NCBI GenBank assembly: GCA_964492935.1 | Contig: CAZBLF010000029.1 | Coordinates: 1-13,851, forward strand | Length of the DNA stretch: 13,851 nucleotides | Source of the DNA: an uncultured Methanosarcinales archaeon | GTDB lineage: Archaea > Nanobdellota > Nanobdellia > Woesearchaeales > JACPBV01 | Reading direction: 5' to 3' | Shown: piece after piece, positions 2,484 through 12,436 of the stretch | How positions within the stretch are numbered: the stretch's first letter is position 1 | Layout: the number at the start of each line of letters is the position of its first letter | Notes under the pieces: model-generated | Seen by the model: only the letters and a program-made list of their open reading frames with translations | What the model was told of the DNA's origin: nothing | The model's database searches: none | Made by a program: the position numbers and the translations under genes

Positions 2484-3158
2484 TTATTCTTTTACGGTTG
2501 AGAAGATTGTGTGTAGGTAAAATACTGTTCTTAACAGTTCTGTTGCGATGTTTAATGTATAGAACGCTAGGATGATCTGTACGTTTGCGAAGATGATGAA
2601 GGGAAATGCTACCTTGTTGAAGTCGATGAGCATGGTGAAGAGTCTTGCTGGACCTTTATTCTTTCCTTTTGCTTTCTCTAGGTTGGTTTCAGTCTTTTCG
2701 GTGTAATCGAAGACGCGTTCTCTCGCACTCGTTACTGCTAGAAGCGTTAGGGCTGCGATCAGGATGTAGATGCTGTTGAAATTGTTCCTGAAATGGAAGA
2801 ATAGACCTAGGGCTAGTGCTACATAGAAGATTCTATTTACTAGAAGATCTCCGATTGCATCGTACAGGAAGCCTTTCTTTGAGAATTTCTTGGTGATTCT
2901 CGCAATTGCGCCATCGGCACAGTCTAATAGGATACCTAGTTCGAATAGGATTACGGTTGGAAGTTTAAGGAACATGAATGCGGTTACAATGCTTGCTAGT
3001 TTTGCTAGAAGGTTTAAGGTGGTAACTTGGTTAGGGGTTGCTCTTAGTTTTAGGAGAACCCAGGTTAATGGTACTGAGAGATAGCGGTACATCATCTGGT
3101 GGATTAACTTGTAGTGCCACGGCTTCGCGCTTTTCTTTAAGATGTATTTGAAATTCAT
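2484..3158 (-). CDS. CDP-alcohol phosphotransferase family integral membrane protein (canonical motif)
   Basis: 224 aa and hydrophobic throughout. It carries the complete signature D-x2-DG-x2-AR-x8-G-x3-D-x3-D as LLDCADGAIARITKKFSKKGFLYDAIGD (nt 2847-2924). Confidence 0.85.
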   Translation of the reverse strand: MNFKYILKKSAKPWHYKLIHQMMYRYLSVPLTWVLLKLRATPNQVTTLNLLAKLASIVTAFMFLKLPTVILFELGILLDCADGAIARITKKFSKKGFLYDAIGDLLVNRIFYVALALGLFFHFRNNFNSIYILIAALTLLAVTSARERVFDYTEKTETNLEKAKGKNKGPARLFTMLIDFNKVAFPFIIFANVQIILAFYTLNIATELLRTVFYLHTIFSTVKE

Positions 3159-3181: not shown

Positions 3182-4093
3182 TTATAAGGGTTTTCCTTCT
3201 AGCAGTGCGTTTATTGCCATGGCCCATCCTTCGGGACCGGTGCCATCTACTCTGATTATTGAAGAATTTTCTGGAAGTTCTACATGTCCTTTAGGCTTTG
3301 CCACTTGGTAGCCTTTGTCTGCCCATTCTTCCATGCCGTGATCGCTTTGGGAATCGCCTAGTCCAACGGTAAAAACTCCTTGAGGGTATTTGATTTCGTA
3401 CATTTGCTTGAGGGCTTTACACGCCTCTTCTTTTGAAACTTCATTGTTATCGCGTCCCTTACCGACTAAGTGGTAGCGGCCTCGACTCCATGTATATCCT
3501 GCATCCTCTAATTCCTGTTTGAATCGCGCTATTTTTTCTTCGTCATCGTCGAAGCCTCCGAATTCGGTTCCAATCTTTACGGGCAGATGATATTCTTTCA
3601 TTTGATCTAGCTTTGCTAGCTCTAGGTCATAGCCGACGTCTCTGCCTAGTTCTTGGGGAGACATCTCCGTATAAAGTCTGATTTCAAATGGGAGTTCTTT
3701 TTGTAGTTCATGTAGGAATCTCGTTGTTTCGTCGACTCCAATGTTGTATTCTAGAAGGTTGTATGTTGCATTATCTTCGACTCTCTCCTCATCGGCGAGC
3801 CAAGGTCTAAATTCTTCATGCTCTTCTAACTCACTACGACTTAGAAAATCTTCTGGGACGTAGATGACGCTTCCGTTTTCTGCTATTAATGGAAAGGGAT
3901 TATCTAATCTTCGAATGTCTAGGAGTGCGAGAGCTGCTGATTTGCCGGTAACGAAAGATATGGGGATTTCAGCTTCAATAGCTGCATCGTAGGCGTCTCG
4001 TGAGAGATCGTCTTTAGCGGTGCGATCGTCTATGTAGCAACCATCCATATCGGTAAGAATGATTGTTTGTTCAAGATCTTGGTCTGCATGCAT
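3182..4093 (-). CDS. HAD superfamily phosphatase, subclass IIB-like (MPGP/Cof-like), very acidic
   Basis: 303 aa. Motif I is ILTDMDGCYIDD, motif II FVTGKS and motif IV GLGDSQSDHGM, with a large cap insertion between motifs II and IV. A 23-nt gap separates it from the downstream CDP-alcohol transferase. Confidence 0.7.
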   Translation of the reverse strand: MHADQDLEQTIILTDMDGCYIDDRTAKDDLSRDAYDAAIEAEIPISFVTGKSAALALLDIRRLDNPFPLIAENGSVIYVPEDFLSRSELEEHEEFRPWLADEERVEDNATYNLLEYNIGVDETTRFLHELQKELPFEIRLYTEMSPQELGRDVGYDLELAKLDQMKEYHLPVKIGTEFGGFDDDEEKIARFKQELEDAGYTWSRGRYHLVGKGRDNNEVSKEEACKALKQMYEIKYPQGVFTVGLGDSQSDHGMEEWADKGYQVAKPKGHVELPENSSIIRVDGTGPEGWAMAINALLEGKPL

Positions 4094-4220: not shown

Positions 4221-4937
4221 ATGAAAGCGTTAATTTTAGCGGCTGGAATGGGAAGTCGATTGATGCCGTATACTGAGGAAACTCCGAAGTGTTTGTTGAA
4301 GGTGGGGGAGGTTCCGATGTTGGCTTTGCAGTTGAAGGCATTGCATGCTATTGGGATTCGCGATATTGTTGTGGTTACTGGTTATTTGAAAGAGAAAGTA
4401 GAGGAAGTTGTTGGAGATCAGGGGAAATGTATCTTTAATCCTGATTTTGAGACTCATGGGATTTTGCATTCGTTTTTAGCTGCTAAAGAAGAGGTGTATG
4501 GCGAGGAATTTTTGTATTTGGCAGGAGATATTGTGTATAATGCTAAGATTCCGTCTTTGATTGCTTCTGGTAAAGGAGATATTGCTATTGGTGTTGATCG
4601 GAAGCCTTGCAACGAGGAGCATTCAAAAGTGTTAGTTGAGAACGGCCAGGTTGTGGAGATGGCTAAGACGATTGTTTGTGGGGAAGCTACTGGTGAATTT
4701 GCTCATATTGCTAAGTTTTCTAAGGAAGGCAGTAAGGCGTTCTTTGATGTGATTGAGGAAACGCTTGCTGAGAAAGATGCGCGTGCGTATATGATGGATG
4801 CGTTGAACAAGGTTCGCGACAAGGGTTTGGTTATGCTTCCGGTGTACACTGACGGGTATGCTCGGATTGAAATTGATTTTATTGAGGATTTAGAGAAAGC
4901 CCGAAAGATGGTGTTTCATGAAACTGACGCTCGTTAG
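4221..4937 (+). CDS. Sugar- or alcohol-phosphate nucleotidyltransferase (LicC/IPCT/PntC-like)
   Basis: MKALILAAGMGSRLMPYTEETPKCLLKV is the G-x-G-(S/T)-R...PK nucleotide-binding signature. It is 238 aa from the ATG at 4221. The track ORF begins at 4167, but that extension would start upstream of the TATA box. It overlaps the next gene by 20 nt. Confidence 0.8.
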   Translation: MKALILAAGMGSRLMPYTEETPKCLLKVGEVPMLALQLKALHAIGIRDIVVVTGYLKEKVEEVVGDQGKCIFNPDFETHGILHSFLAAKEEVYGEEFLYLAGDIVYNAKIPSLIASGKGDIAIGVDRKPCNEEHSKVLVENGQVVEMAKTIVCGEATGEFAHIAKFSKEGSKAFFDVIEETLAEKDARAYMMDALNKVRDKGLVMLPVYTDGYARIEIDFIEDLEKARKMVFHETDAR

Positions 4938-6309
4938 ACACGGTCAGACTGAGGAAAATGCTTCTGGTATTATTCAGGGACAGAGTCGTGGAACGTTAAG
5001 TGAAAAGGGGAAGCTGCAGGCTGCGGAGCTTGGGGAGACTTTGAAGAATCATTCTTTCGATGTGATTATTTCTAGTAGTTCTAATCGTGCCAAGAATACG
5101 GCGTCGGTGATTGGTGAGGGGCATGATGTTGCATTGGAGTTGTCTGATGCAATTCGTGAGAGAAATTTGGGTGTTGCAGAGGGAACTGCTGTAGGGGCGG
5201 CACATGGGTTGATGAAGGAGACGCCGGAAGGTGGGGAATCGTTAGCTCAGGTTAGGGATCGTGCCGAGGCGTTTGCTCGAGAATTGCTTGCAAAAGAATA
5301 TTCTTCTTGTTTGATTGTATCGCATAATGGATTTCTTGCGCATTTGATGGGATTTTTTCAGGCAAAGGCAATTGATTCTTGTTTAGACTTTAAAATTGAA
5401 CATGGTGAAGTTTTGGAGATTGATATTTCTCTCGTTGATGTGGGGAATTTGAATTATGTATACAAGATTACGCTGAATGGAATTACTGGATATTTGAAGC
5501 AGGCTCTGACAGAGTATCGTAAATCGTTTCCTGGTGAGAAAGAGTTGCCGTTGAAAGAGGATCGATTGGCGAATGAGGTTGCTGCTCTGAAGCAATTGAA
5601 TGCTTTGGATGTTTCTGGTTTTACCTTTCCTTCGGTGTTGTCGTATGATGCTGCCCATAATCTAGTGTTGTTATCTGAAATTACGGGAAAAACATTGCTC
5701 TCTTATTTCTTGGAGGGTGTTTTTGATGAAGCGCATGCTTCTGCTGCGGGAGATGCTCTGGGATTGTTGCATGCGGTGGATGCTGCTGGCATTCGAAAGG
5801 ATGATGATGCTTTCTTTAAGGAGATTGTTCGGTTTCGAAGCGTGGTGAGTAGTCATGCGCTAGGTTCGGAGCATCAGAAATTGATTGCTGAACGGTTTGA
5901 TACTATTTTTGCTGATGGTTTTCCAAAATCTTTGTTGATTGGTGATTTTTCTCCTAAGCAGTTGTTGTTATCTGGAGGTTCTGTGGGTGTTGTGGACTTG
6001 GAATTTGCTTGTAAAGGTGATGCGGCATTCGATGTTGGCTTTTTCTTGGCGCACTATGTGCTGGAGGAGATGAAGGGTGCTGATTCTGGTGCGGTAGAGG
6101 GTGCTATGAAGGCCTTTATTGAGGCGTATGGGAAGCATGTTGCTATTGAAGGGATGAAATCAAGGATACTTTTTTATATGGGAGCGGGATTACTCAATAG
6201 AGTCGATGGCACGGTTCGGGGTGGCGATATCAATGAAGCAATTGTCGCTGCTATCAGGGAACGATCGATAAAAATTATTAGTGGGGAAGTAACCTATGGA
6301 ATGGGATAA
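4918..6309 (+). CDS. Bifunctional fusion: N-terminal histidine phosphatase (PGM/cofactor-dependent mutase family) plus C-terminal MtnK-like (APH/choline-kinase fold) kinase
   Basis: 463 aa. Residues 1-~168 carry LVRHGQTEEN (RHG motif), SSSSNRAKNTA (conserved Arg) and IVSHNGFL (second His). From residue ~175, VGNLNYVYKI and GYLKQAL match the MtnK GDGNLNYVF and IIKQAV motifs. IGDFSPKQLLL is the catalytic-loop Asp, VVDLEFACKGDAAFDVGFF the D-x-EF metal loop, and MGAGLLNRVDG matches the MtnK C-terminal helix. Confidence 0.8.
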   Translation: MKLTLVRHGQTEENASGIIQGQSRGTLSEKGKLQAAELGETLKNHSFDVIISSSSNRAKNTASVIGEGHDVALELSDAIRERNLGVAEGTAVGAAHGLMKETPEGGESLAQVRDRAEAFARELLAKEYSSCLIVSHNGFLAHLMGFFQAKAIDSCLDFKIEHGEVLEIDISLVDVGNLNYVYKITLNGITGYLKQALTEYRKSFPGEKELPLKEDRLANEVAALKQLNALDVSGFTFPSVLSYDAAHNLVLLSEITGKTLLSYFLEGVFDEAHASAAGDALGLLHAVDAAGIRKDDDAFFKEIVRFRSVVSSHALGSEHQKLIAERFDTIFADGFPKSLLIGDFSPKQLLLSGGSVGVVDLEFACKGDAAFDVGFFLAHYVLEEMKGADSGAVEGAMKAFIEAYGKHVAIEGMKSRILFYMGAGLLNRVDGTVRGGDINEAIVAAIRERSIKIISGEVTYGMG

Positions 6310-7495
6310 CGACATAACAATAACTTATTTTATCAAGAAGGCGATTGCCACGAAGAAATCGTTGCGCGAGGTTGTAGATACCATTGCAGCAGGGATTAGT
6401 ATTGGGACGCTACAGGTAGCATATGATGCTCATACCACTAAATGGCACGCGGATAAGGCTGCGAATCCTAATGCGTATAAGGCAGAGGTTGAGGAGTATA
6501 GCGTATTGCCGATGGATGAGAATTCTGCTGTTGTGAAAATTAAGGTTTGTAGTGATTTAATGGATTTGAAGCATTGTTCTTTCGCGACGTTGCTCTCTTT
6601 TATTGCTGGCGATGTTTTTGGGACGTCGTATGACGCGGAAGAGATTCGCGTTTTGGATATTGACTTTTCTGAAAAGGCATTGGCTCAGTTTAAGGGTCCT
6701 AAATTCGGAAGTGAAGGTATTCGGAAGATGCTTGGATTGGAGAATAGTGATCGGCCGTTGCAGGCTTTGATTTTGAAACCGAATACCGGTCAGCCAAGTT
6801 CTCATTACGCCGATATTGCTTACAAGGCTGCATTAGGTGGGATGGATTTCATCAAGGATGACGAATTAAACATTAATCCTACGTCGTGTCCGTTTGAGGA
6901 GCGTGTCAAGATGATTTGTGATGCGTTGAAAGAGGCTGAAAAGGAGACGGGCAAGAAAACTATCTATGCTCCAAATATTTCGTTCCGACCTGAATATATG
7001 AAGGAATATGCTCGAAAAGCTATTGCGGCTGGAGCTAGTGCATTGATGATGAATATTGTGTATGTGGGTATGACTGCGGTGCAGATGATTGCTGAGGATC
7101 CGGAATTTAATGTTCCTATTTACGTGCATCGAGCAGGACATGATTTCTTTACGAGAAATGAGGTAGGTATTGCGATGCCGGTTATGACTAAGTTTTTCCG
7201 ATTGTCGGGAGCTGACATTATGTCGGTGGGTCCGGTCTTTGGTGGTTTAGAGACGAAGGAAACGGTTAAGAAGACGTATGAAGCAGTTAATGCGGATATG
7301 TATGGCATTAACAAGTCTCTTGCTGTTGTTTCTCGATCAAGTAAGGATATTGTTCAGGGTACTGTGGATTGGTTGCAGACGAAGAATGTGATGTTCTTGG
7401 CGGATGGCGGAATTTACAACGGTCCTGAAGGTATTACTGCTACAACCAAAGAGATGAAAGAGACGATTGAGAAAGTTCAGATTCAATCTGCTTGA
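6296..7495 (+). CDS. RuBisCO large-subunit-like protein (form IV RLP), not a carboxylase
   Basis: 399 aa. DRPLQALILKPNTGQ...GGMDFIKDDELN aligns by eye to GRPLLGCTIKPKLGL...GGLDFTKDDENV. VHRAGH corresponds to IHRAMH, and RLSGADIMSVGPVFGGLE to MSGGDHIHSGTVVGKLE. The K334 and H327 equivalents are lost. It overlaps the upstream kinase fusion by 14 nt. Confidence 0.85.
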   Translation: MEWDNDITITYFIKKAIATKKSLREVVDTIAAGISIGTLQVAYDAHTTKWHADKAANPNAYKAEVEEYSVLPMDENSAVVKIKVCSDLMDLKHCSFATLLSFIAGDVFGTSYDAEEIRVLDIDFSEKALAQFKGPKFGSEGIRKMLGLENSDRPLQALILKPNTGQPSSHYADIAYKAALGGMDFIKDDELNINPTSCPFEERVKMICDALKEAEKETGKKTIYAPNISFRPEYMKEYARKAIAAGASALMMNIVYVGMTAVQMIAEDPEFNVPIYVHRAGHDFFTRNEVGIAMPVMTKFFRLSGADIMSVGPVFGGLETKETVKKTYEAVNADMYGINKSLAVVSRSSKDIVQGTVDWLQTKNVMFLADGGIYNGPEGITATTKEMKETIEKVQIQSA

Positions 7496-8313
7496 TTTTT
7501 TAATTTTTTATAGTTTTCTTCTGGAAGTAATTGGGATGCTAGGGTTGCGTCGCGTCCGTGGAAGTCGGAGCCGCCTGAAAGTAATAAGTTTAGTTTTTCT
7601 GCTTCCTTTTTTATGGTAGATGCGGAATATTTTTCGAATGCATCTGCACGATAGGGATAGAAGTGTTCTATTGCGTCTCCGCCTGCCTTTTTGAAATCGT
7701 GGATGAGTGTTTTGGCATCGGTATTGCTGTAGACGAGGGGATGTGCTAGTATTGCTAAGCCGCGAGCATTATGAATTGCATCGATTGCTTGTTTGAAGGT
7801 GGTTGTTTGCTTTCTGTTTTTGTAGGCAGGTTGTCCATTGCCGATGAGGGTATCAAATACCTGGTCAGGGGTTTCTAGTTGTTTGTTGTTTTTCATGAGG
7901 ATTGATGCGATGTGTGGGCGGCCGATCGTTCCTTTCGCTAGTTTGTGTACTTCCTCGTACGTTATCTTGTAGCCGAGCTTTTGTAATGCTTGTATCATGT
8001 CTTTCTTTTGTACTATTCTCGCTTTTTGGGCTTTGTCAACGATTTCTAGAATGTCTTTGTGGTTTGGGTCGATGAAGAGACCGAGAATGTGGATATCGGA
8101 GTGTTGTGGATGATCTGCGGTTATTTCGATGCCCGGAACTACGGTGAGTGTTGTGTTCTTGGCTGCTTTTTGTGCAGCTGCGATGCCTGCGGTGGTGTCG
8201 TGGTCGGTTATTCCGATGACATCTAGGCGTTCTTTTAGCGCTGCATCAATTAATTCTTTTGGAGAAAGCTTGCCGTCGGAGGCGGTGGTATGAGTATGGA
8301 GATCGATGCGCAT
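7483..8313 (-). CDS. PHP-domain metal-dependent phosphoesterase (TrpH/YciV-like); candidate 3',5'-bisphosphonucleotide (pAp) phosphatase
   Basis: 276 aa. MRIDLHTHTTASDG is the PHP His-x-His start, followed by ITDHDT, the ILAHP His and GGSDFHG. It is the last gene of the Sat-CysC operon, with only 3 nt between it and cysC. Confidence 0.75.
   Translation of the reverse strand: MRIDLHTHTTASDGKLSPKELIDAALKERLDVIGITDHDTTAGIAAAQKAAKNTTLTVVPGIEITADHPQHSDIHILGLFIDPNHKDILEIVDKAQKARIVQKKDMIQALQKLGYKITYEEVHKLAKGTIGRPHIASILMKNNKQLETPDQVFDTLIGNGQPAYKNRKQTTTFKQAIDAIHNARGLAILAHPLVYSNTDAKTLIHDFKKAGGDAIEHFYPYRADAFEKYSASTIKKEAEKLNLLLSGGSDFHGRDATLASQLLPEENYKKLKNQAD
7496..7510 (+). terminator. Oligo-T tract (TTTTTTAATTTTTTA), a candidate archaeal intrinsic terminator for the RLP operon
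   Basis: It follows the RLP stop codon (7493-7495) directly. The same bases on the other strand encode the Lys-rich C-terminus (KKLKN) of the convergent PHP gene. Confidence 0.35.
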
Positions 8314-8316
8314 GCC

Positions 8317-8832
8317 TTAACAAATTCCCTTGTCTTTTAAAGCTTGTCTTAGTTGTTGTGCTGCTTGTTCTGGTGTTGTGTTTTGGGTGTCTATTGTGAC
8401 TTCGGGTTGCTCAGGTTCCTCGTAAGGTACATTTAATCCTACGAAGTCTTTTATCTCTCCTGATCTGAATTTTTTATAGTGACCTTTGACATCTCGTTCC
8501 TCGCAAATTTCGATTGGGCATTTGATGTAGACTTCGATGAATTTTTTTATCTGATTTCTGGCATATTCTCTAATTGCCTTGGTGGGAGAGATGACGCAGG
8601 CTATGCTCAGGATGTGGTCGCTTGTTAAGAGTGCACAAATATCTGCTACTCTTGTGATGTGCTTGTCGCGATCTTCTTTTGTATAGCCGAGATCCTTAGA
8701 AATGGTTTTTCTGACGATATCTCCATCTAATAGAGCTACCTGGATGTTTTCTTTTCTTAATTGCTCTACTAATAGCTCGGCAATGGTGGATTTTCCTGCT
8801 CCGGAAAGCCCGGTAAACCAGATTGTGGTCAT
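8317..8832 (-). CDS. cysC: Adenylylsulfate (APS) kinase
   Basis: 171 aa. IWFTGLSGAGKSTIA is the P-loop, LDGDIVR the substrate motif, and SPTKAIRE follows. ATGA overlap with sat. Confidence 0.92.
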   Translation of the reverse strand: MTTIWFTGLSGAGKSTIAELLVEQLRKENIQVALLDGDIVRKTISKDLGYTKEDRDKHITRVADICALLTSDHILSIACVISPTKAIREYARNQIKKFIEVYIKCPIEICEERDVKGHYKKFRSGEIKDFVGLNVPYEEPEQPEVTIDTQNTTPEQAAQQLRQALKDKGIC

Positions 8833-9971
8833 ATGAGGACCTCGTGAGATAATTCTTGTGCAACTTCTTTGCGCATGAACTCTTTTGGTGGAATCTCTTT
8901 CTTAGACAACATGTCACGGATGAGTGTTCCAGAGATTTCGATTTGTTCCTCTACAGGATGCGGACACGTCTTTTCTGTTGCGATGGAATCACAGTGTTTG
9001 CAGAAGTAGGGTCCTTTTAGTTTGAGGATTTCAATGCCTAGATCATCGAATTTGTCGGTGAACTCCTGGGCTTCGTACTTTTTGTAAAATGAGCCTACAC
9101 CTGCGTGGTCGCGACCTACAATGAAATGGGTGCATCCGAAGTTTTTACGGATGATTGCGTGGAAGACGGCCTCTCGGGGTCCGGCATAACGCATCTGGGT
9201 AGTGAGTGCCGATAAGATTGCACTGTTTTTCGGATAATAGTGTTCGATTAAGGTTTTGTAGCCGTTGATGACGGCTTCTGGAGTGTAGTCGCCCTTCTTT
9301 TTCCAGCCGATTAGGGGATGGAGTAGGATTCCATCTGTTAATTCTAATGCTGCTTTTTGCAAATATTCGTGTGCACGGTGAGGTACGTTTCTTGTCTGGA
9401 AGCCGGTGATTGTTTTCCAGCCTCGCTTCTCGAACTCTGCTCGGGTTTGTTTAGGTGTTAGTTGTACGCCGGGTACAATTGGATCGGGTTCGCCAATCAT
9501 ATCGATTTCTCCTGCAAGCATGATATTGCCGGAATCGTGAAGCTTTTTTACTCCAGGATGGGTTAGATCTTGAGTTCCGAAAATGGCTTGGGATGCTTCG
9601 GTGAGATTAGCCGTATAGATTTGCTCGAGATGCATCTGGGCAATAAGCTTATCATTTTCGTCGAATAGATTGATGTCGTCGCCCTCCTTGACGTTTTCTG
9701 GTACCTTTTGCAGTGGACAGGTCACCGGAACGGTGAACGGGAGATTGTTTTCTAGTCTCGACTCGTGCAGAATGTTGAGAAAGTCGTTCTGAGTTACAAA
9801 TCCTTGTAGCGGTGAAAAAGCTCCTTGTGCAATATTTGCAATATCTAGGATCGTTTCTCGGCTGATGGTGATTTTGGGTAGTTCGTTTGCCTGTGCGATT
9901 GCCTTTTCTCTTCTTTCTCCGGTGAGTAATCGGTCAATTAATTCATTTCCATGTGGTTTATTTGCTTTCAT
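8829..9971 (-). CDS. sat: Sulfate adenylyltransferase (ATP sulfurylase), short homo-oligomeric type
   Basis: 380 aa. GFQTRNVPHRAHE corresponds to the QxRNPxHxxH motif, and HFIVGRDHAGVG is also present. A C-terminal C-x2-C-x8-C-x-H cluster (FCKHCDSIATEKTCPH) resembles the Cys/His zinc site of Thermus/archaeal-type enzymes. Confidence 0.92.
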   Translation of the reverse strand: MKANKPHGNELIDRLLTGERREKAIAQANELPKITISRETILDIANIAQGAFSPLQGFVTQNDFLNILHESRLENNLPFTVPVTCPLQKVPENVKEGDDINLFDENDKLIAQMHLEQIYTANLTEASQAIFGTQDLTHPGVKKLHDSGNIMLAGEIDMIGEPDPIVPGVQLTPKQTRAEFEKRGWKTITGFQTRNVPHRAHEYLQKAALELTDGILLHPLIGWKKKGDYTPEAVINGYKTLIEHYYPKNSAILSALTTQMRYAGPREAVFHAIIRKNFGCTHFIVGRDHAGVGSFYKKYEAQEFTDKFDDLGIEILKLKGPYFCKHCDSIATEKTCPHPVEEQIEISGTLIRDMLSKKEIPPKEFMRKEVAQELSHEVLI

Positions 9972-11646
9972 TTGTGCCCCCGTGTTGTTTGAAAAATCCT
10001 AGGAATTCATCTACCTTGTGGACTTCCACCATATTGATGATCTTTCGGTGATTAGGAAATACTGCTCCTGCGAGGACGATGGTGTCTTGCTCCTCGATTA
10101 ATTGATTCTTGATACAGGCCATGATTGCCTCCTTCTTTTGCTCGACGGATCCCGAATTATCTATTTCATGCTCGACTTGTAATGGGATGACTCCTCTTAG
10201 GAGTTTCAATCTTCTTACGATTTTTATGTTGCTTGTTAGTGCTATAATGGGGAATGAGCTATTGAATCTCGCTAGCATTCTCGCGGAAAAGCCGCCATGA
10301 GTGATACAGAGGAGCTTGTCGATATGCGTATGCTTTGAGAGATCGATAATCATCTTTGAGCAGGCGTCGCTGGGATCGGTGGACTCGTTATCATTCTCTA
10401 AATCGAGAATTGGCGTTTCCTCCTCGCATTCTTGAATGACTGTTGACATTACTTTGACTGCTTGTTCCGGGTTTGCGCCTATCGCCGTTTCACCGGAGAG
10501 CATGACTGCGGACGCGCCATCCATGACTGCGGACGCGATATCTGCTACCTCTGATTTCTTCGGTAGTGGTTGCGTTACCATCGAATGGAGCATTTCTGTA
10601 GCGACGATGACTGGCTTTGCTCTTTTATTTCCTTCTTCGATGATATGCTTCTGAAGCATAGGGACTTTTTGGAAGGAGACTTCGCTTCCTAGGTCTCCCC
10701 GATCGATCATGATGCCATAGGCTGCTTCGATGATGCCGGAAACATTTTTGATTGCTTCCTGATTCTCTACTTTTGCAATGATTTTGATTGTTGATCCCTC
10801 TAACTTTTTTTCTACCGTTCGAACTTCGTCTGCAGTATTGACGAATGATAGCCCGACGAAATCTACTTGTTCTTTTTTTGCGAATGCTATACACTTGTTT
10901 TCTTTTTCCTGTATAGATTCGCGGCTGAGGATCGCTCCGGGAATATTGACGCCTTTGCCTTCTTGTAGGACTGCATCATGCTGGACGAGGCAGGTTACGT
11001 TGTTTCCATCGATTGATTGTACGGTAATTGCGATTGAGCCGTCATCCATGAGCAACTCTTGCCGAGGTTTGACGTGTTTTGGGAATTCAGGTAGATCGAC
11101 ACCGATAGCATCTCCTTCTGGAGTGGTTGAGAGGATGATTGTGGAGTTGGCTTTGAGGATGCGAGGCTCTTTTAATCCGCGAACGCGTACTTTGGGGCCA
11201 GGGATGTCTAATAGAATAGGAATAGTTGCGTCTACTTCGCGTACTTTCTTGATGATGTCGCTATGTTGTTCGGGATTGCCGTGGGATGAATTTATTCTTG
11301 CTACATCCATCCCTGCATTCTTGAGTTTGGTGATTTCTTCAATGGAATTGGTTACAGGACCGATCGTTGCGATGATTTTTGTCTTCTTGATCATGATTTG
11401 CCTTGTAGATCCGATTTCGGCGAGAATTTCTTTAGTTGTGGCAGACTCGTGATTGAGAACATAGAAGATTGCGTTTCCTAAGGACTCTGCTTTGACTACG
11501 GACTCGTCTTCCAGTTCCTTGAGAATTTTGTGGGCACTTCCTACGCTGATGGAAAGAGTTTTGGCGATTTGATTAATCGTTAATCGGCGAGATGCATTTC
11601 TATCTAGAAACGAAATGATCTTTTGGGTGTTTTTGGAGACTGCCAT
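9958..11646 (-). CDS. Fusion of an N-terminal winged helix-turn-helix domain (~aa 1-80) to a full-length pyruvate kinase (A, B and C domains)
   Basis: 562 aa. The wHTH is LTINQIAKTLSISVGSAHKILKELEDESVVKAESLGNAIFYVL. The PK motifs are KTKIIATIGP, ARINSSHG, DIPGPKVRV, KIIAKVENQEA, IMIDRGDLGSEV, VIVATEMLHSM and VMLSGETAIG, with a C-domain ITHGGFSARMLARF...PIIALT. An internal Met85 (nt 11394-11392) sits at the domain junction. It is the first gene of the sat-cysC-PHP operon, with a 14-nt overlap with sat. Confidence 0.85.
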   Translation of the reverse strand: MAVSKNTQKIISFLDRNASRRLTINQIAKTLSISVGSAHKILKELEDESVVKAESLGNAIFYVLNHESATTKEILAEIGSTRQIMIKKTKIIATIGPVTNSIEEITKLKNAGMDVARINSSHGNPEQHSDIIKKVREVDATIPILLDIPGPKVRVRGLKEPRILKANSTIILSTTPEGDAIGVDLPEFPKHVKPRQELLMDDGSIAITVQSIDGNNVTCLVQHDAVLQEGKGVNIPGAILSRESIQEKENKCIAFAKKEQVDFVGLSFVNTADEVRTVEKKLEGSTIKIIAKVENQEAIKNVSGIIEAAYGIMIDRGDLGSEVSFQKVPMLQKHIIEEGNKRAKPVIVATEMLHSMVTQPLPKKSEVADIASAVMDGASAVMLSGETAIGANPEQAVKVMSTVIQECEEETPILDLENDNESTDPSDACSKMIIDLSKHTHIDKLLCITHGGFSARMLARFNSSFPIIALTSNIKIVRRLKLLRGVIPLQVEHEIDNSGSVEQKKEAIMACIKNQLIEEQDTIVLAGAVFPNHRKIINMVEVHKVDEFLGFFKQHGGTNESK

Positions 11647-11647
11647 A

Positions 11648-11669
11648 TTAGTGAATGATTATTCACTTA
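11648..11669. promoter_or_regulatory. Inverted repeat (candidate operator) directly upstream of the HTH-PK start codon
   Basis: TTAGTGAAT (11648-11656), a gatt spacer, then ATTCACTTA (11661-11669). The core AGTGAAT/ATTCACT is a perfect 7-nt inverted repeat. It lies between the minus-strand TATA (11681-11688) and the ATG (11646). Confidence 0.5.
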
Positions 11670-11680
11670 ATTTGTGCTTG

Positions 11681-11688
11681 TTTATAAA
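11681..11688 (-). promoter_or_regulatory. Archaeal-type TATA box (TTTATAAA, palindromic) for the HTH-PK/sat/cysC/PHP operon
   Basis: 42 nt upstream of the ATG at 11646. The implied ~10-15 nt leader contains the inverted repeat. Confidence 0.45.
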
Positions 11689-11714
11689 GACATCGCTTTT
11701 TGAGACGTTATATC

Positions 11715-11723
11715 ATTCACTTA
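11715..11723 (+). promoter_or_regulatory. Third copy of the 9-mer ATTCACTTA, upstream of the rightward promoter
   Basis: An exact direct repeat of 11661-11669, 54 nt away. It ends 16 nt upstream of the TATA at 11739. Confidence 0.4.
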
Positions 11724-11738
11724 CTATTTTCCCATATG

Positions 11739-11746
11739 TTTATATA
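11739..11746 (+). promoter_or_regulatory. Archaeal-type TATA box (TTTATATA) for the CDP-alcohol-transferase-like/GT4 operon
   Basis: 29 nt upstream of the ATG at 11768. This supports 11768 rather than 11615 as the start. Confidence 0.5.
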
Positions 11747-11767
11747 GCGTGTGCTGCTCATAGGGGT

Positions 11768-12436
11768 ATGGTTAAGATTCCTGCTAAGTATGATCGAAGT
11801 GTGGTGATGCGTGTTTTCGCGCGTCCGGTAGGGAATTTGATGATTCCTCTTTTTATGAAGCTCGGTATTACAGGAAATCAACTTTCGATCTTCAATATCT
11901 TTTTTACGTTGTTTAGTTTTCTGTTGATTGGGACTGATAGTTTAGTCATTGGTGCTTTGTTGTTGCAATTTACTATTATTTTTGATACGATGGATGGTAC
12001 TTTGTCTAAAATGAGAAAGCAGAAGTCGCTGTATGGGCGGTATCTAGAAAAGATTTGGCATAATGCGATTGTTCCTTTCTTGTTCGTTGCGCTTGGATGT
12101 AATGTGACTTTGAACAACGGAGATAGTATGTATTGTTTGATTGGATTCTTCATTACGGGATCGATCTTGGTCGTTAATCTTATTGAATTTATTCGTCGGT
12201 ATACGTTTCAGGTTGCTCCTAAGGCACTGGATGCTGATCAGACGGTGAAATCTGAGAAATCGTTGTTGCAGATTGTGGTGCGAGCTATCGGAGATACTTC
12301 GTACATCTTCATGTACGTGTTGGTGTTTGGATATGCTGGTTACCTGGATATGCTGGTGTTGTTTTACGGAGTCTTTTACGGATTGTTGTTTGTTGTCAAA
12401 TTCTTTCAGTTTCTTGGAAAACCAAAGGGTTTTTAA
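11768..12436 (+). CDS. CDP-alcohol phosphotransferase-like integral membrane protein with a degenerate signature motif
   Basis: 222 aa from the ATG at 11768; the track start at 11615 would overlap the PK gene and both promoters. It is hydrophobic throughout. The motif DTMDGTLSKMRKQKSLYGRYLEKIWH (nt 11984-12061) reads D-x2-DG-x2-SK-x8-G-x3-E-x3-H, so AR is replaced by SK, the third Asp by Glu and the fourth Asp by His. Confidence 0.6.
   Translation: MVKIPAKYDRSVVMRVFARPVGNLMIPLFMKLGITGNQLSIFNIFFTLFSFLLIGTDSLVIGALLLQFTIIFDTMDGTLSKMRKQKSLYGRYLEKIWHNAIVPFLFVALGCNVTLNNGDSMYCLIGFFITGSILVVNLIEFIRRYTFQVAPKALDADQTVKSEKSLLQIVVRAIGDTSYIFMYVLVFGYAGYLDMLVLFYGVFYGLLFVVKFFQFLGKPKGF

What the first reader, a model, noticed from the sequence alone, without database searches (positions are those of the whole stretch)
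4918..6309. Histidine phosphatase fused head-to-tail to an MtnK-like kinase
Seen in sequence: one 463-aa ORF carries a complete histidine-phosphatase catalytic set (RHG, the conserved Arg in SNRAKNT, and SHNGF). With almost no linker (~aa 168-175), this leads into a kinase domain whose first recognisable element is the MtnK glycine-rich motif GNLNYVY. The usual ~30-aa MtnK N-terminal segment therefore seems to be replaced by the phosphatase. The kinase catalytic Asp (GDFSPKQ), the D-x-E metal loop (DLEF) and the ATP lysine (YLKQA) are all present, so both halves look active. Established: the only widely known histidine-phosphatase/kinase fusion is PFK-2/FBPase-2, which has the opposite domain order and an unrelated kinase fold. 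Inference: the fusion either acts on two different positions of one metabolite, giving a net phosphate relocation, or forms a futile-cycle-type regulatory pair.
Basis: partly seen in the sequence, partly recalled or inferred. Interest (0 to 1): 0.72.

Follow-up and report, generated by a model that had tools for sequence, protein, structure and literature searches.

The report
Phosphatase-kinase fusion beside a RuBisCO-like gene
A tiny marine archaeon has welded a phosphatase and a sugar-type kinase into one enzyme, and its gene sits between a nucleotide-activating enzyme and a RuBisCO-like protein, which points to an undescribed route for making an activated building block for the cell surface.

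Summary
ORF 4918-6309 (463 aa) is an intact fusion of a branch-1 histidine phosphatase (aa 1-~167, catalytic set complete) and a ~295-aa kinase. By sequence profile and predicted fold, the kinase's closest solved relatives are methylthioribose kinase (MtnK) and PsiK. It is not an MtnK orthologue.

It is not an artefact. The fusion is intact in a 99.5%-identical contig and in an 84%-identical marine lineage, with dN/dS about 0.15 in both halves. More distant relatives carry the two halves as adjacent separate genes, so the fusion arose by loss of a stop and a start codon. No other His_Phos+APH protein turned up.

The main result is the context. The fusion is the middle gene of an overlapping operon: NTP-transferase, then phosphatase-kinase, then a RuBisCO-like protein that lacks the carboxylation residues. 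Twelve related cassettes keep a kinase next to an RLP. At least eleven also have an NTP-transferase and nine a phosphatase, even where the kinase is a P-loop type and the phosphatase a HAD type. They lie in glycan or head-group loci beside enzymes that use CDP-alcohols.

Best reading: ATP-driven relocation of a phosphate on a pentose-type intermediate handled by the RLP, followed by nucleotide activation. The substrate is unknown.

The parts
4918..6309 (+). Fusion ORF, 463 aa: histidine phosphatase plus MtnK/PsiK-clade kinase
   Evidence: AF2 model has mean pLDDT 90.5 and pTM 0.79. Intact in L039, L001 and L002.
4918..5418 (+). His_Phos_1 domain (aa 1-~167): RHG at 4936-4944, Arg in SNRAKNT at 5080-5100, Glu in RERNLG at 5155-5172, second His in SHNGF at 5320-5334
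   Evidence: Pfam 3e-35. Closest NCBIfam model is alpha-ribazole phosphatase CobC, 92.7 bits, below its cutoff. PDB relatives are TIGAR, CobC, PhoE, PspA and GpgP. Motif coordinates.
5374..5442 (+). Fusion junction (aa 153-175): the only low-confidence stretch of the model (aa 153-163), followed by EVLEIDISLVDV running straight into the kinase G-loop
   Evidence: In split orthologues the stop and start fall here: L031 reads ...EIKIYNL* / MEMKLVDIGN.
5419..6306 (+). Kinase domain (aa 168-463): G-loop GNLNYVY at 5443-5463, ATP Lys in YLKQA at 5491-5505, catalytic loop GDFSPKQ at 5941-5961, metal loop DLEF at 5995-6006, GDAAFDVGFF at 6016-6045
4221..4937 (+). NTP-transferase (sugar- or alcohol-phosphate nucleotidylyltransferase). 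The listed ORF starts at GTG 4167, but the probable start is ATG 4221. It overlaps the fusion ORF by 20 nt.
   Evidence: Pfam NTP_transf_3 and NTP_transferase at about 1e-14. NCBIfam best hits are AglF, archaeal GlmU N-domain, IPCT and MurU, all below cutoff. L001 calls a 238-aa gene here.
6296..7495 (+). RuBisCO-like protein (399 aa), overlapping the fusion ORF by 14 nt. Keeps K175, K201, D203, E204, H294, R295, H298, S379, G403 and G404. Lacks K177 (N), H327 (S), K334 (G), E60 (G), W66 (L), N123 (D) and G380/G381 (R, S).
2484..3158 (-). CDP-alcohol phosphotransferase a. Co-varies with the cassette: only 42% identical in L005, where the flanking genes are 88-92% identical.
3182..4093 (-). HAD-IIB phosphatase (mannosyl-3-phosphoglycerate-phosphatase family), transcribed divergently from the operon
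11615..12436 (+). CDP-alcohol phosphotransferase b, 41% identical in L005

Best explanation
The ORF encodes a genuine bifunctional enzyme. It formed when the stop and start codons between two adjacent genes were lost. It is the middle gene of a translationally coupled operon: NTP-transferase, then phosphatase-kinase, then RuBisCO-like protein (RLP). The operon forms the variable cassette of a cell-surface glycan or head-group locus in a marine Nanoarchaeota (DPANN) archaeon.

Proposed mechanism. The MtnK-like kinase adds a second phosphate to a pentose-type sugar phosphate. The RLP isomerises the sugar by enolisation, either before the kinase step or at the bisphosphate stage. The histidine phosphatase then removes the original phosphate. 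The net effect is an ATP-driven, irreversible move of the phosphate to the position the NTP-transferase needs. This is the logic of heptose 7-P to 1,7-bisP to 1-P to NDP-heptose. The NTP-transferase makes a CDP- or other NDP-linked donor. The neighbouring CDP-alcohol phosphotransferases install it as a phosphodiester-linked group; in relatives this role falls to LicD or a TagF-like enzyme.

Most specific guess: Ru5P/R5P to a pentulose or pentose 1,5-bisphosphate, to the 1-phosphate, to CDP-pentose or CDP-pentulose.

Shown: the fusion, intact catalytic residues, the family affinities, the conserved gene neighbourhood, and the loss of carboxylase residues in the RLP. Inferred: substrate identity, order of steps, and which nucleotide is used.
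For: The fusion is real and under selection. The split state, NTP-transferase / His_Phos / kinase / RLP as separate genes, occurs in L003 and in L031-33/L040.

Every kinase at least 32% identical to the window's, found without reference to RLPs, sits next to an RLP: L001, L003, L004, L005, L040, L041, L043, L051. So does L038 at 27%, where the kinase is fused to the NTP-transferase (P0070).

The closest RLP relatives, found without reference to kinases (L029, L034; 40-41% identity), are flanked by an NTP-transferase, a HAD_2 phosphatase and a P-loop kinase resembling 2-phosphoglycerate kinase. That kinase family phosphorylates substrates that already carry a phosphate. In L005, L043 and L051 a HAD hydrolase takes the His_Phos position. 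The kinase, phosphatase and NTP-transferase functions therefore recur beside the RLP despite non-homologous replacement of both kinase and phosphatase.

The kinase is MtnK-like, and MtnK phosphorylates C1-OH of a 5-substituted ribofuranose. The phosphatase scores best against CobC, a 5'-phosphatase acting on a 1-substituted ribofuranose, and against TIGAR, a sugar bisphosphatase. RpiB is present in sister cassettes. The window RLP keeps the enolisation residues and both phosphate sites, R295/H298 and G403/G404.

Adjacent transferases all use CDP-alcohol donors: CDP-OH_P_transf in the window, L001, L005, L031 and L034; LicD in L003 and L051; Glyphos_transf in L003. The NTP-transferase and CDPOH_a together match the two halves of the bifunctional IPCT/DIPPS model NF041135. 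Archaeal pentose-bisphosphate chemistry has precedent, including a HAD RuBP 5-phosphatase that yields ribulose-1-P (PMC9700705).
Against: There is no biochemistry and the substrate is unknown. The L041/L049 group has only RLP, kinase and RpiB, with no NTP-transferase or phosphatase within reach. The kinase-RLP pair may therefore be an older salvage-type core. The more distant kinases in phosphonate clusters (L036/L037) have an NTP-transferase and a HAD but no RLP. Type-B RLPs lack R295, so a bisphosphate substrate is not a given for all cassettes. The nucleotide used (C, U, G or A) could not be read from the sequence.
Confidence: 0.55

Rival explanations
1. Salvage or catabolic pathway of the methionine-salvage or 5-deoxyribose type. 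The kinase phosphorylates a free 5-modified ribose (MTR, 5-deoxyribose), the RLP acts as an enolase or 1,3-isomerase as MtnW or the R. rubrum RLP does, and the phosphatase plays the part of MtnX.
For: MtnK-like kinase. The window RLP scores 179 bits on the MtnW model NF007095. Kinase plus RLP plus phosphatase is the known MtnK/MtnW/MtnX trio (established knowledge). The L041 group has only RLP, kinase and RpiB. Radical-SAM genes lie near some cassettes.
Against: No MtnA, MtnB or MtnD homologue is present in any cassette. An NTP-transferase is present in at least 11 of 12 cassettes and is once fused to the kinase, which a salvage route does not need. The cassettes sit in glycan or head-group loci with CDP-alcohol transferases. 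The scores are far below the MtnK and MtnW cutoffs.
Confidence: 0.12
2. The histidine-phosphatase domain is really a phosphomutase, as dPGM is. The fused kinase only supplies the bisphosphate primer or intermediate, so the relocation is catalytic rather than consuming ATP stoichiometrically.
For: His_Phos_1 contains the cofactor-dependent mutases. The HAD_2 family that replaces it in sister cassettes contains beta-phosphoglucomutase. Both mutase types work through bisphosphate intermediates (established knowledge).
Against: The domain is short (~167 aa) and lacks the C-terminal tail that caps dPGM active sites. Its best matches are phosphatases (CobC, TIGAR, PhoE, PspA, GpgP), while the dPGM models score lower. 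A full-size dedicated kinase in every cassette is more than a primer supply would need.
Confidence: 0.15
3. A regulatory bifunctional enzyme like PFK-2/FBPase-2. It would set the level of a bisphosphate effector, for example an RLP ligand, through opposing activities on the same position.
For: A kinase plus a His_Phos in one chain is the PFK-2/FBPase-2 theme. TIGAR is the top solved relative of the phosphatase half.
Against: The gene sits in an operon with overlapping reading frames alongside biosynthetic enzymes. The function is kept when the kinase and phosphatase are swapped for unrelated folds, and when the kinase is fused to the NTP-transferase. No regulatory domain is present.
Confidence: 0.07
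4. Assembly, frameshift or chimera artefact that joined two separate genes.
For: Relatives do carry two separate genes.
Against: The ORF is intact in three independent assemblies at 99.5% and 84% nt identity. dN/dS is 0.035 across the junction. The junction peptide is conserved.
Confidence: 0.01

Closest known systems
NDP-heptose pathway (GmhA isomerase, HddA/HldE kinase, GmhB phosphatase, HddC/HldE nucleotidyltransferase)
   Same: It has the same four functions: isomerase, kinase that makes a bisphosphate, phosphatase that removes the original phosphate, and nucleotidyltransferase. Its enzymes also occur as fusions (HldE). It is the best functional analogue.
   Different: All four enzymes come from other folds (SIS, GHMP or PfkB, HAD). 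Here the parts are an RLP, an APH-fold MtnK-like kinase and a histidine phosphatase. The substrate is probably C5 rather than C7, and the neighbouring transferases point to CDP-alcohol-type transfer.
PFK-2/FBPase-2 (6-phosphofructo-2-kinase/fructose-2,6-bisphosphatase)
   Same: A kinase and a branch-1 histidine phosphatase share one polypeptide and act on a sugar phosphate.
   Different: Opposite domain order, a P-loop kinase fold, both activities on the same position, and a regulatory role. It is eukaryotic.
Methylthioribose kinase MtnK, 5-deoxyribose kinase and PsiK clade
   Same: These are the closest solved relatives by profile and by fold. They share the GNLN G-loop, the catalytic Asp loop and the DxE metal loop.
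   Different: 17-19% identity in the structural alignments. The score is far below the MtnK equivalog cutoff. The kinase is shorter (~295 aa against ~400) and has a different gene neighbourhood.
MtnK/MtnW/MtnX of Bacillus methionine salvage
   Same: An MtnK-type kinase, a RuBisCO-like protein and a phosphatase work in one pathway.
   Different: No MtnA, MtnB or MtnD is present. An NTP-transferase is integral to the cassette. The phosphatase is His_Phos rather than HAD. The RLP keeps R295 and H298, unlike MtnW.
IPCT/DIPPS (CDP-inositol and di-myo-inositol-phosphate synthesis), followed by a phosphatase
   Same: An NTP_transferase-fold cytidylyltransferase works with a small CDP-alcohol phosphotransferase and a phosphatase. 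The window's NTP-transferase and CDPOH_a match the two halves of NF041135.
   Different: The scores are far below cutoff (73 and 47 bits against 580). There is no inositol-phosphate synthase. The substrate supply comes from the RLP, kinase and phosphatase instead.
Archaeal pentose-bisphosphate pathways (R1P kinase, R15P isomerase, RuBisCO or RuBP 5-phosphatase)
   Same: An archaeal route through pentose 1,5-bisphosphates that includes a RuBisCO-family enzyme or a phosphatase yielding a pentulose 1-phosphate (PMC9700705).
   Different: Those pathways are catabolic. They use RbsK-type or ADP-dependent kinases and an e2b2 isomerase, have no NTP-transferase, and use a true carboxylase.
AmgK-MurU and LicA-LicC pairs
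   Same: An APH-fold small-molecule kinase is paired with an NTP_transferase-fold enzyme to make an NDP-linked donor. Compare the NTP-transferase-kinase fusion P0070.
   Different: No phosphatase or RLP is involved, and the kinases belong to other APH subfamilies.

Membership tests
Histidine phosphatase superfamily, branch 1 (PF00300) | Profile score above the Pfam gathering threshold | tested here: met
   122.1 bits against 21.7, aa 3-170
Histidine phosphatase superfamily, branch 1 (PF00300) | Catalytic quartet: RHG nucleophile His, second Arg, acid/base Glu, second His | tested here: met
   R7-H8-G9, R57 (SNRAKNT), E81 (RERNLG) and H136 (SHNGF). They match the consensus of 59 aligned relatives.
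Cofactor-dependent phosphoglycerate mutase or alpha-ribazole phosphatase CobC (equivalogs) | Score above the NCBIfam equivalog cutoff | tested here: not met
   CobC TIGR03162 scores 92.7 against 162.9. The dPGM models score 56 bits or less against cutoffs of 225 or more.
S-methyl-5-thioribose kinase MtnK (TIGR01767) | Score above the equivalog cutoff | tested here: not met
   46.9 bits against 275. Only profile positions 30-119 match.
S-methyl-5-thioribose kinase MtnK (TIGR01767) | MtnK-type G-loop (G-x-G-N-L-N-x-V), catalytic Asp loop and DxE metal loop | tested here: met
   VDVGNLNYVY, GDFSPKQ and DLEF, aligned to 2olc
S-methyl-5-thioribose kinase MtnK (TIGR01767) | Closest solved fold is MtnK rather than a generic APH | tested here: met
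   Profile search: MtnK 1e-16 against APH(3') 1.6e-3. Foldseek: PsiK and MtnK at E of about 6e-12 and TM of about 0.6, ahead of the APHs.
S-methyl-5-thioribose kinase MtnK (TIGR01767) | Methionine-salvage neighbourhood (MtnA, MtnB, MtnD) or activity on MTR | tested here: not met
   None of these genes is present in the window or in any related cassette. Activity cannot be tested here.
PFK-2/FBPase-2 | N-terminal P-loop 6PF2K domain followed by a C-terminal His_Phos domain | tested here: not met
   The order is reversed and the kinase has an APH fold.
Bona fide RuBisCO, form III (the neighbouring gene 6296-7495) | Full carboxylase residue set including K334, E60, N123, K177 and H327 | tested here: not met
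   K334G, E60G, N123D, K177N and H327S, read from the alignment to 2cwx and within the clade. TIGR03326 scores 198 against 497.
RuBisCO-like proteins (form IV in the broad sense) | RuBisCO_large fold that keeps K175, carbamate K201 and Mg ligands D203/E204 | tested here: met
   LKPN and FIKDDE are conserved. The protein falls in no named RLP equivalog (MtnW 179 against 409, OiaX 136 against 700).
Kinase, phosphatase and nucleotidyltransferase phosphate-relocation module (NDP-heptose logic) | Co-located kinase, phosphatase and NTP-transferase, conserved across relatives | tested here: met
   Twelve non-redundant cassettes. At least 11 have an NTP-transferase and 9 a phosphatase.
Kinase, phosphatase and nucleotidyltransferase phosphate-relocation module (NDP-heptose logic) | The kinase makes a bisphosphate and the phosphatase removes the other phosphate | not testable with these tools
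   Needs enzymology.

The most novel reading that the evidence does not exclude
RuBisCO-like proteins have an unrecognised biosynthetic role. Together with a kinase, a phosphatase and a nucleotidyltransferase, they would make a nucleotide-activated (probably CDP-linked) pentose, pentulose or related phospho-sugar. This would be installed as a phosphodiester decoration on the surface glycans or lipids of DPANN archaea and other uncultivated microbes. The fused phosphatase-kinase would be the ATP-driven 'mutase' of this pathway.
Probability: 0.45. Interest if true: 0.85.

Novelty: new variant of a known kind. Interest (0 to 1): 0.68.

Why it matters
The known roles of RuBisCO-like proteins are salvage or catabolic: methionine salvage, the MTA-isoprenoid shunt, and apiose or related sugar-acid catabolism. 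A conserved cassette tying an RLP to a kinase, a phosphatase and a nucleotidyltransferase inside glycan or head-group loci would be a new functional class for the RuBisCO superfamily. It would also be a new nucleotide-sugar-type pathway. The cassette varies between otherwise ~90%-identical Nanoarchaeota loci, so it may contribute to surface diversity in host-dependent DPANN archaea. The fusion is a clean Rosetta-stone link, which makes the pathway directly testable by reconstituting three genes.

Tried and rejected
1. Word-indexed homologue search with the whole fusion gave only 3 hits. The exhaustive representative search was needed.

2. The search for related loci with the 15-sequence alignment failed because it had no conserved stretch. 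The 7-sequence alignment worked.

3. The genome scan mostly returned distant kinases (23-31% identity) in Planctomycetota, Bacteroidota and others. None had an RLP, NTP-transferase or His_Phos neighbour, so they are uninformative for this subfamily.

4. The viral contig scan found nothing. A link to the phage 'form IV-like' RLPs of Jaffe et al. (PMC6389311) was considered and not supported.

5. The two-stretch ~400-aa hits in the representative search were checked as possible hidden His_Phos+APH fusions. All are tandem His_Phos proteins, or HAD plus His_Phos.

6. phmmer of the fusion against PDB found no kinase hit at all. A family profile was needed.

7. Literature searches for an RLP with a nucleotidyl- or cytidylyltransferase, with a capsule, or with MtnK plus a nucleotidyltransferase found nothing relevant.

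8. A bona fide form III RuBisCO role in the AMP pathway was considered and rejected, because K334 and E60 are lost and no DeoA or e2b2 gene is present.

9. The possibility that the NTP-transferase serves the nearby phosphonate genes (PntC-like) rather than the kinase and RLP was considered. It is judged less likely because of the overlapping ORFs and the NTP-transferase-kinase fusion P0070, but it is not excluded.

10. A phosphoglycerate-type substrate was considered. The hints are the 2PGK-like kinases, the MPGP-like HAD-IIB and the PGM-family phosphatase. It is kept as an open alternative to the pentose guess.
Full report
**1. Observation**

The window has an uninterrupted ATG-initiated ORF at 4918-6309 on the + strand, encoding 463 aa. 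Pfam places His_Phos_1 at aa 3-170 (E 3e-35) and APH at aa 212-381 (E 2.7e-14), both well above the gathering scores.

The phosphatase set is R7/H8/G9, R57, E81 and H136. The kinase set is the G-loop GNLNYVY, the ATP Lys in YLKQA, the catalytic loop GDFSPKQ and the metal loop DLEF. These kinase positions are invariant or nearly so in an alignment of 15 family members.

**2. The fusion is not an artefact**

- A JGI contig (L039) is 99.5% identical over 5559 nt, with no gaps, and carries the same ORF.
- Two TARA assemblies (L001, L002) are about 84% identical at the DNA level. They carry an 85%-identical 466-aa fusion in the same operon.
- Between window and L001, dS is about 0.64. dN/dS is 0.148 for the phosphatase half, 0.144 for the kinase half and 0.035 for the junction. 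Both halves and the join are therefore under purifying selection.

**3. Origin of the fusion**

In more distant relatives the two halves are adjacent but separate genes. This holds for L003 (kinase 42% identical) and for L031-33/L040 (43%). The order there is NTP-transferase, His_Phos (169-170 aa), kinase (297-298 aa), RLP.

The junction aligns as '...EIKIYNL* / MEMKLVDIGN' in the split form (L031) against '...EVLEIDISLVDVGN' in the fusion. The fusion is thus a simple loss of stop and start with no linker added.

The split kinases already lack the ~25-aa N-terminal extension seen in other family members. The phosphatase therefore did not replace that extension.

The AF2 model is confident overall (pLDDT 90.5, pTM 0.79). 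It is uncertain only at aa 153-163, just before the join.

**4. Rarity**

An exhaustive HMMER search of 1.84 billion representative proteins listed its 150 best hits. None outside the query's own cluster combined His_Phos with this kinase. The multi-stretch hits were checked and are tandem His_Phos proteins, tandem APH proteins, a HAD-His_Phos protein or aminoacyl-tRNA-synthetase insertions. A profile search of the 5.8-billion-protein set found PF00300+PF01636 only in P0001. Unrelated His_Phos+APH fusions scoring below those lists cannot be excluded.

**5. What kind of kinase**

The NCBIfam MtnK equivalog is hit only weakly, at 46.9 bits against a cutoff of 275. It is not an MtnK orthologue.

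A profile of the family nevertheless finds B. subtilis MtnK at 1e-16, PsiK at 5e-15 and A. thaliana MtnK at 5e-13. APH(3') appears only at about 1e-3. Foldseek on the model ranks PsiK and MtnK first, at E of about 6e-12 and TM of about 0.6. 'MtnK-like' is therefore correct at clade level.

The phosphatase half is closest to sugar- and nucleotide-phosphate phosphatases: the CobC model at 92.7 bits, and TIGAR, PhoE, PspA, GpgP and the riboflavin-pathway histidine phosphatase among solved structures. It does not reach any equivalog cutoff.

**6. Context in the window**

The fusion ORF overlaps the upstream NTP-transferase by 20 nt and the downstream RuBisCO-large homologue by 14 nt. The NTP-transferase probably starts at ATG 4221, preceded by a TATA-like tttataaaa.

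The downstream protein keeps K175, K201, D203, E204, H294, R295, H298, S379, G403 and G404. It has K177N, H327S, K334G, E60G, W66L and N123D. It is therefore an RLP and not a carboxylase, and both phosphate-binding regions are largely retained. It has only four close relatives in the 5.8-billion-protein set, at 40-69% identity.

Around the operon lie:
- two CDP-alcohol phosphotransferases;
- a HAD-IIB phosphatase of the mannosyl-3-phosphoglycerate-phosphatase family;
- glycosyltransferases, a DegT aminotransferase and an FdtA-like cupin;
- PAPS-synthesis genes;
- a pyruvate kinase with an N-terminal HTH domain.

**7. Source organism and cassette nature**

L005 is a Nanoarchaeota MAG from the Caspian Sea. 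It shares the flanking DegT, GT2 and cupin genes at 88-92% aa identity and GT4 at 74%. Between them its cassette is only 26-42% identical, with the order CDPOH_a, NTP-transferase, HAD hydrolase, RLP, kinase, CDPOH_b.

The window therefore comes from a related marine DPANN archaeon. The operon and its CDP-alcohol transferases form a swappable cassette within a conserved surface-glycan or head-group locus.

**8. The conserved module**

The non-redundant cassettes found are listed below.

| Group | Loci | Composition |
|---|---|---|
| Fused | window/L039; L001/L002 | NTP-transferase, phosphatase-kinase fusion, RLP |
| Split | L003; L031-33/L040 | NTP-transferase, His_Phos, kinase, RLP as separate genes |
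| HAD in the His_Phos position | L005; L043; L051 | NTP-transferase, HAD, RLP, kinase |
| RpiB-containing | L004 | RLP, kinase, RpiB, NTP-transferase |
| RpiB-containing | L041/42/49/50 | RLP, kinase, RpiB only |
| Kinase fused to NTP-transferase | L038 | RLP divergent from an NTP-transferase-kinase fusion |
| P-loop kinase | L029/30 | SDR, RLP, NTP-transferase-like, HAD_2, P-loop kinase |
| P-loop kinase | L034/35 | RLP, P-loop kinase, NTP-transferase, HAD_2 |

Sources.

The P-loop kinases resemble 2-phosphoglycerate kinase and mevalonate-3-phosphate 5-kinase, scoring 153 and 137 bits. Those enzymes phosphorylate substrates that already carry a phosphate.

A kinase, a phosphatase and an NTP-transferase thus recur around an RLP even when the kinase and phosphatase folds are replaced. 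This is strong comparative evidence that they act in one pathway.

The adjacent transferases are CDP-OH_P_transf, LicD or TagF-like. All three families use CDP-alcohol donors (established knowledge). The window's NTP-transferase and CDPOH_a match the N- and C-terminal halves of the IPCT/DIPPS model.

**9. Mechanistic reading**

The best analogue is the NDP-heptose route. There an isomerase, an anomeric kinase, a phosphatase and a nucleotidyltransferase move a phosphate from the distal to the activatable position at the cost of ATP.

Here the RLP supplies the enolisation and isomerisation step. The MtnK-like kinase and the histidine phosphatase do the relocation, and the NTP-transferase does the activation.

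Several lines point to pentose chemistry, although none of them is a test:
- MtnK phosphorylates C1 of 5-substituted ribose.
- CobC and TIGAR act on the 5'-phosphate of a ribofuranoside and on a sugar bisphosphate.
- RpiB occurs in sister cassettes.
- The RLP is the kind of enzyme that handles pentulose phosphates.
- HAD_2 proteins of two related loci match the haloarchaeal RuBP 5-phosphatase model weakly (L029, 46 bits; L037, 36 bits).
- Pentose-bisphosphate metabolism is documented in archaea (PMC9700705).

My most specific guess is Ru5P/R5P to a 1,5-bisphosphate, isomerised by the RLP before or at this stage, then to the 1-phosphate, then to a CDP-linked donor.

A phosphoglycerate-type acid is an open alternative. 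It is hinted at by the 2PGK-like kinases, the MPGP-like HAD-IIB and the PGM-family phosphatase.

The order of steps and the substrate are inferred, not shown.

**10. Rivals**

- *Methionine-salvage-like route.* The MtnK/MtnW/MtnX trio is the nearest known kinase, RLP and phosphatase combination. It does not explain the near-universal NTP-transferase, the NTP-transferase-kinase fusion or the missing MtnA, MtnB and MtnD. The RLP-kinase-RpiB-only loci keep it alive as a possible ancestral state.
- *Kinase-primed mutase.* This is a variant of relocation and cannot be excluded by sequence.
- *PFK-2/FBPase-2-style regulatory pair.* Nothing supports this beyond the domain types.
- *Artefact.* Excluded.

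**11. Novelty and literature**

Full-text searches found no paper linking RLPs to nucleotidyl- or cytidylyltransferases or to capsule or glycan synthesis. The DPANN/CPR RuBisCO survey reports only one DPANN RLP and does not describe such a cassette (PMC6389311).

The fusion is a new architecture built from known families, and it follows a known pathway logic. The RLP-centred activation cassette may be a new pathway, but its chemistry is unproven.

Noticed in passing
window 9958-11646 (-): Pyruvate kinase with an N-terminal winged-HTH (HTH_24/MarR_2, aa 5-57) ahead of the PK barrel. This is an unusual architecture. L005 has a cytidylyltransferase-PEP-mutase fusion in the corresponding part of the locus.
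   Followed up: no
window 10778-11452 (+); L001 15216-16886: Long antisense ORFs lie inside the pyruvate kinase gene. In L001 the gene caller annotated three + strand ORFs there, although the - strand PK is intact (94% identity, single HSP).
   Followed up: partly
window 3182-4093 (-): The MPGP-like HAD-IIB phosphatase is only 59% identical to its L001 counterpart, while the neighbouring genes are 80-98% identical. This is a local hypervariable gene next to the cassette.
   Followed up: no
window 7483-9971 (-): A complete PAPS module is present: ATP sulfurylase, APS kinase and a PHP-type 3',5'-bisphosphate nucleotidase. No recognisable sulfotransferase is in the window, so a sulfated surface component is implied.
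   Followed up: no
L005 10847-12184 (-); L043 15668-16855; L051 14222-14948; L001 18719-20955: Phosphonate-type genes accompany the cassette in related loci: cytidylyltransferase-PEP mutase fusions, a TPP decarboxylase and an Fe-ADH. The island seems to combine several phospho-, phosphono- and sulfo-decorations.
   Followed up: partly
L041/L042/L049/L050 (e.g. L049 3508-4813): The RLP next to the kinase and RpiB is split into separate N-domain and C-domain ORFs. The split appears in contigs from two different sources (JGI and ENA). It is either a real two-gene RLP or a shared frameshift.
   Followed up: partly
proteins P0007, P0032, P0046 (representative search): Class I aminoacyl-tRNA synthetases of 1056-1419 aa carry two to four His_Phos_1 domains inserted in or appended to the catalytic domain. 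They are unrelated to this locus but odd.
   Followed up: no
L029 12083-12886; L034 1796-2557: P-loop kinases resembling 2-phosphoglycerate kinase and mevalonate-3-phosphate 5-kinase replace the MtnK-like kinase next to the closest RLP relatives.
   Followed up: partly
window, whole length: G exceeds C on the + strand throughout. GC skew is +0.02 to +0.40 and stays positive even where genes are on the - strand.
   Followed up: no
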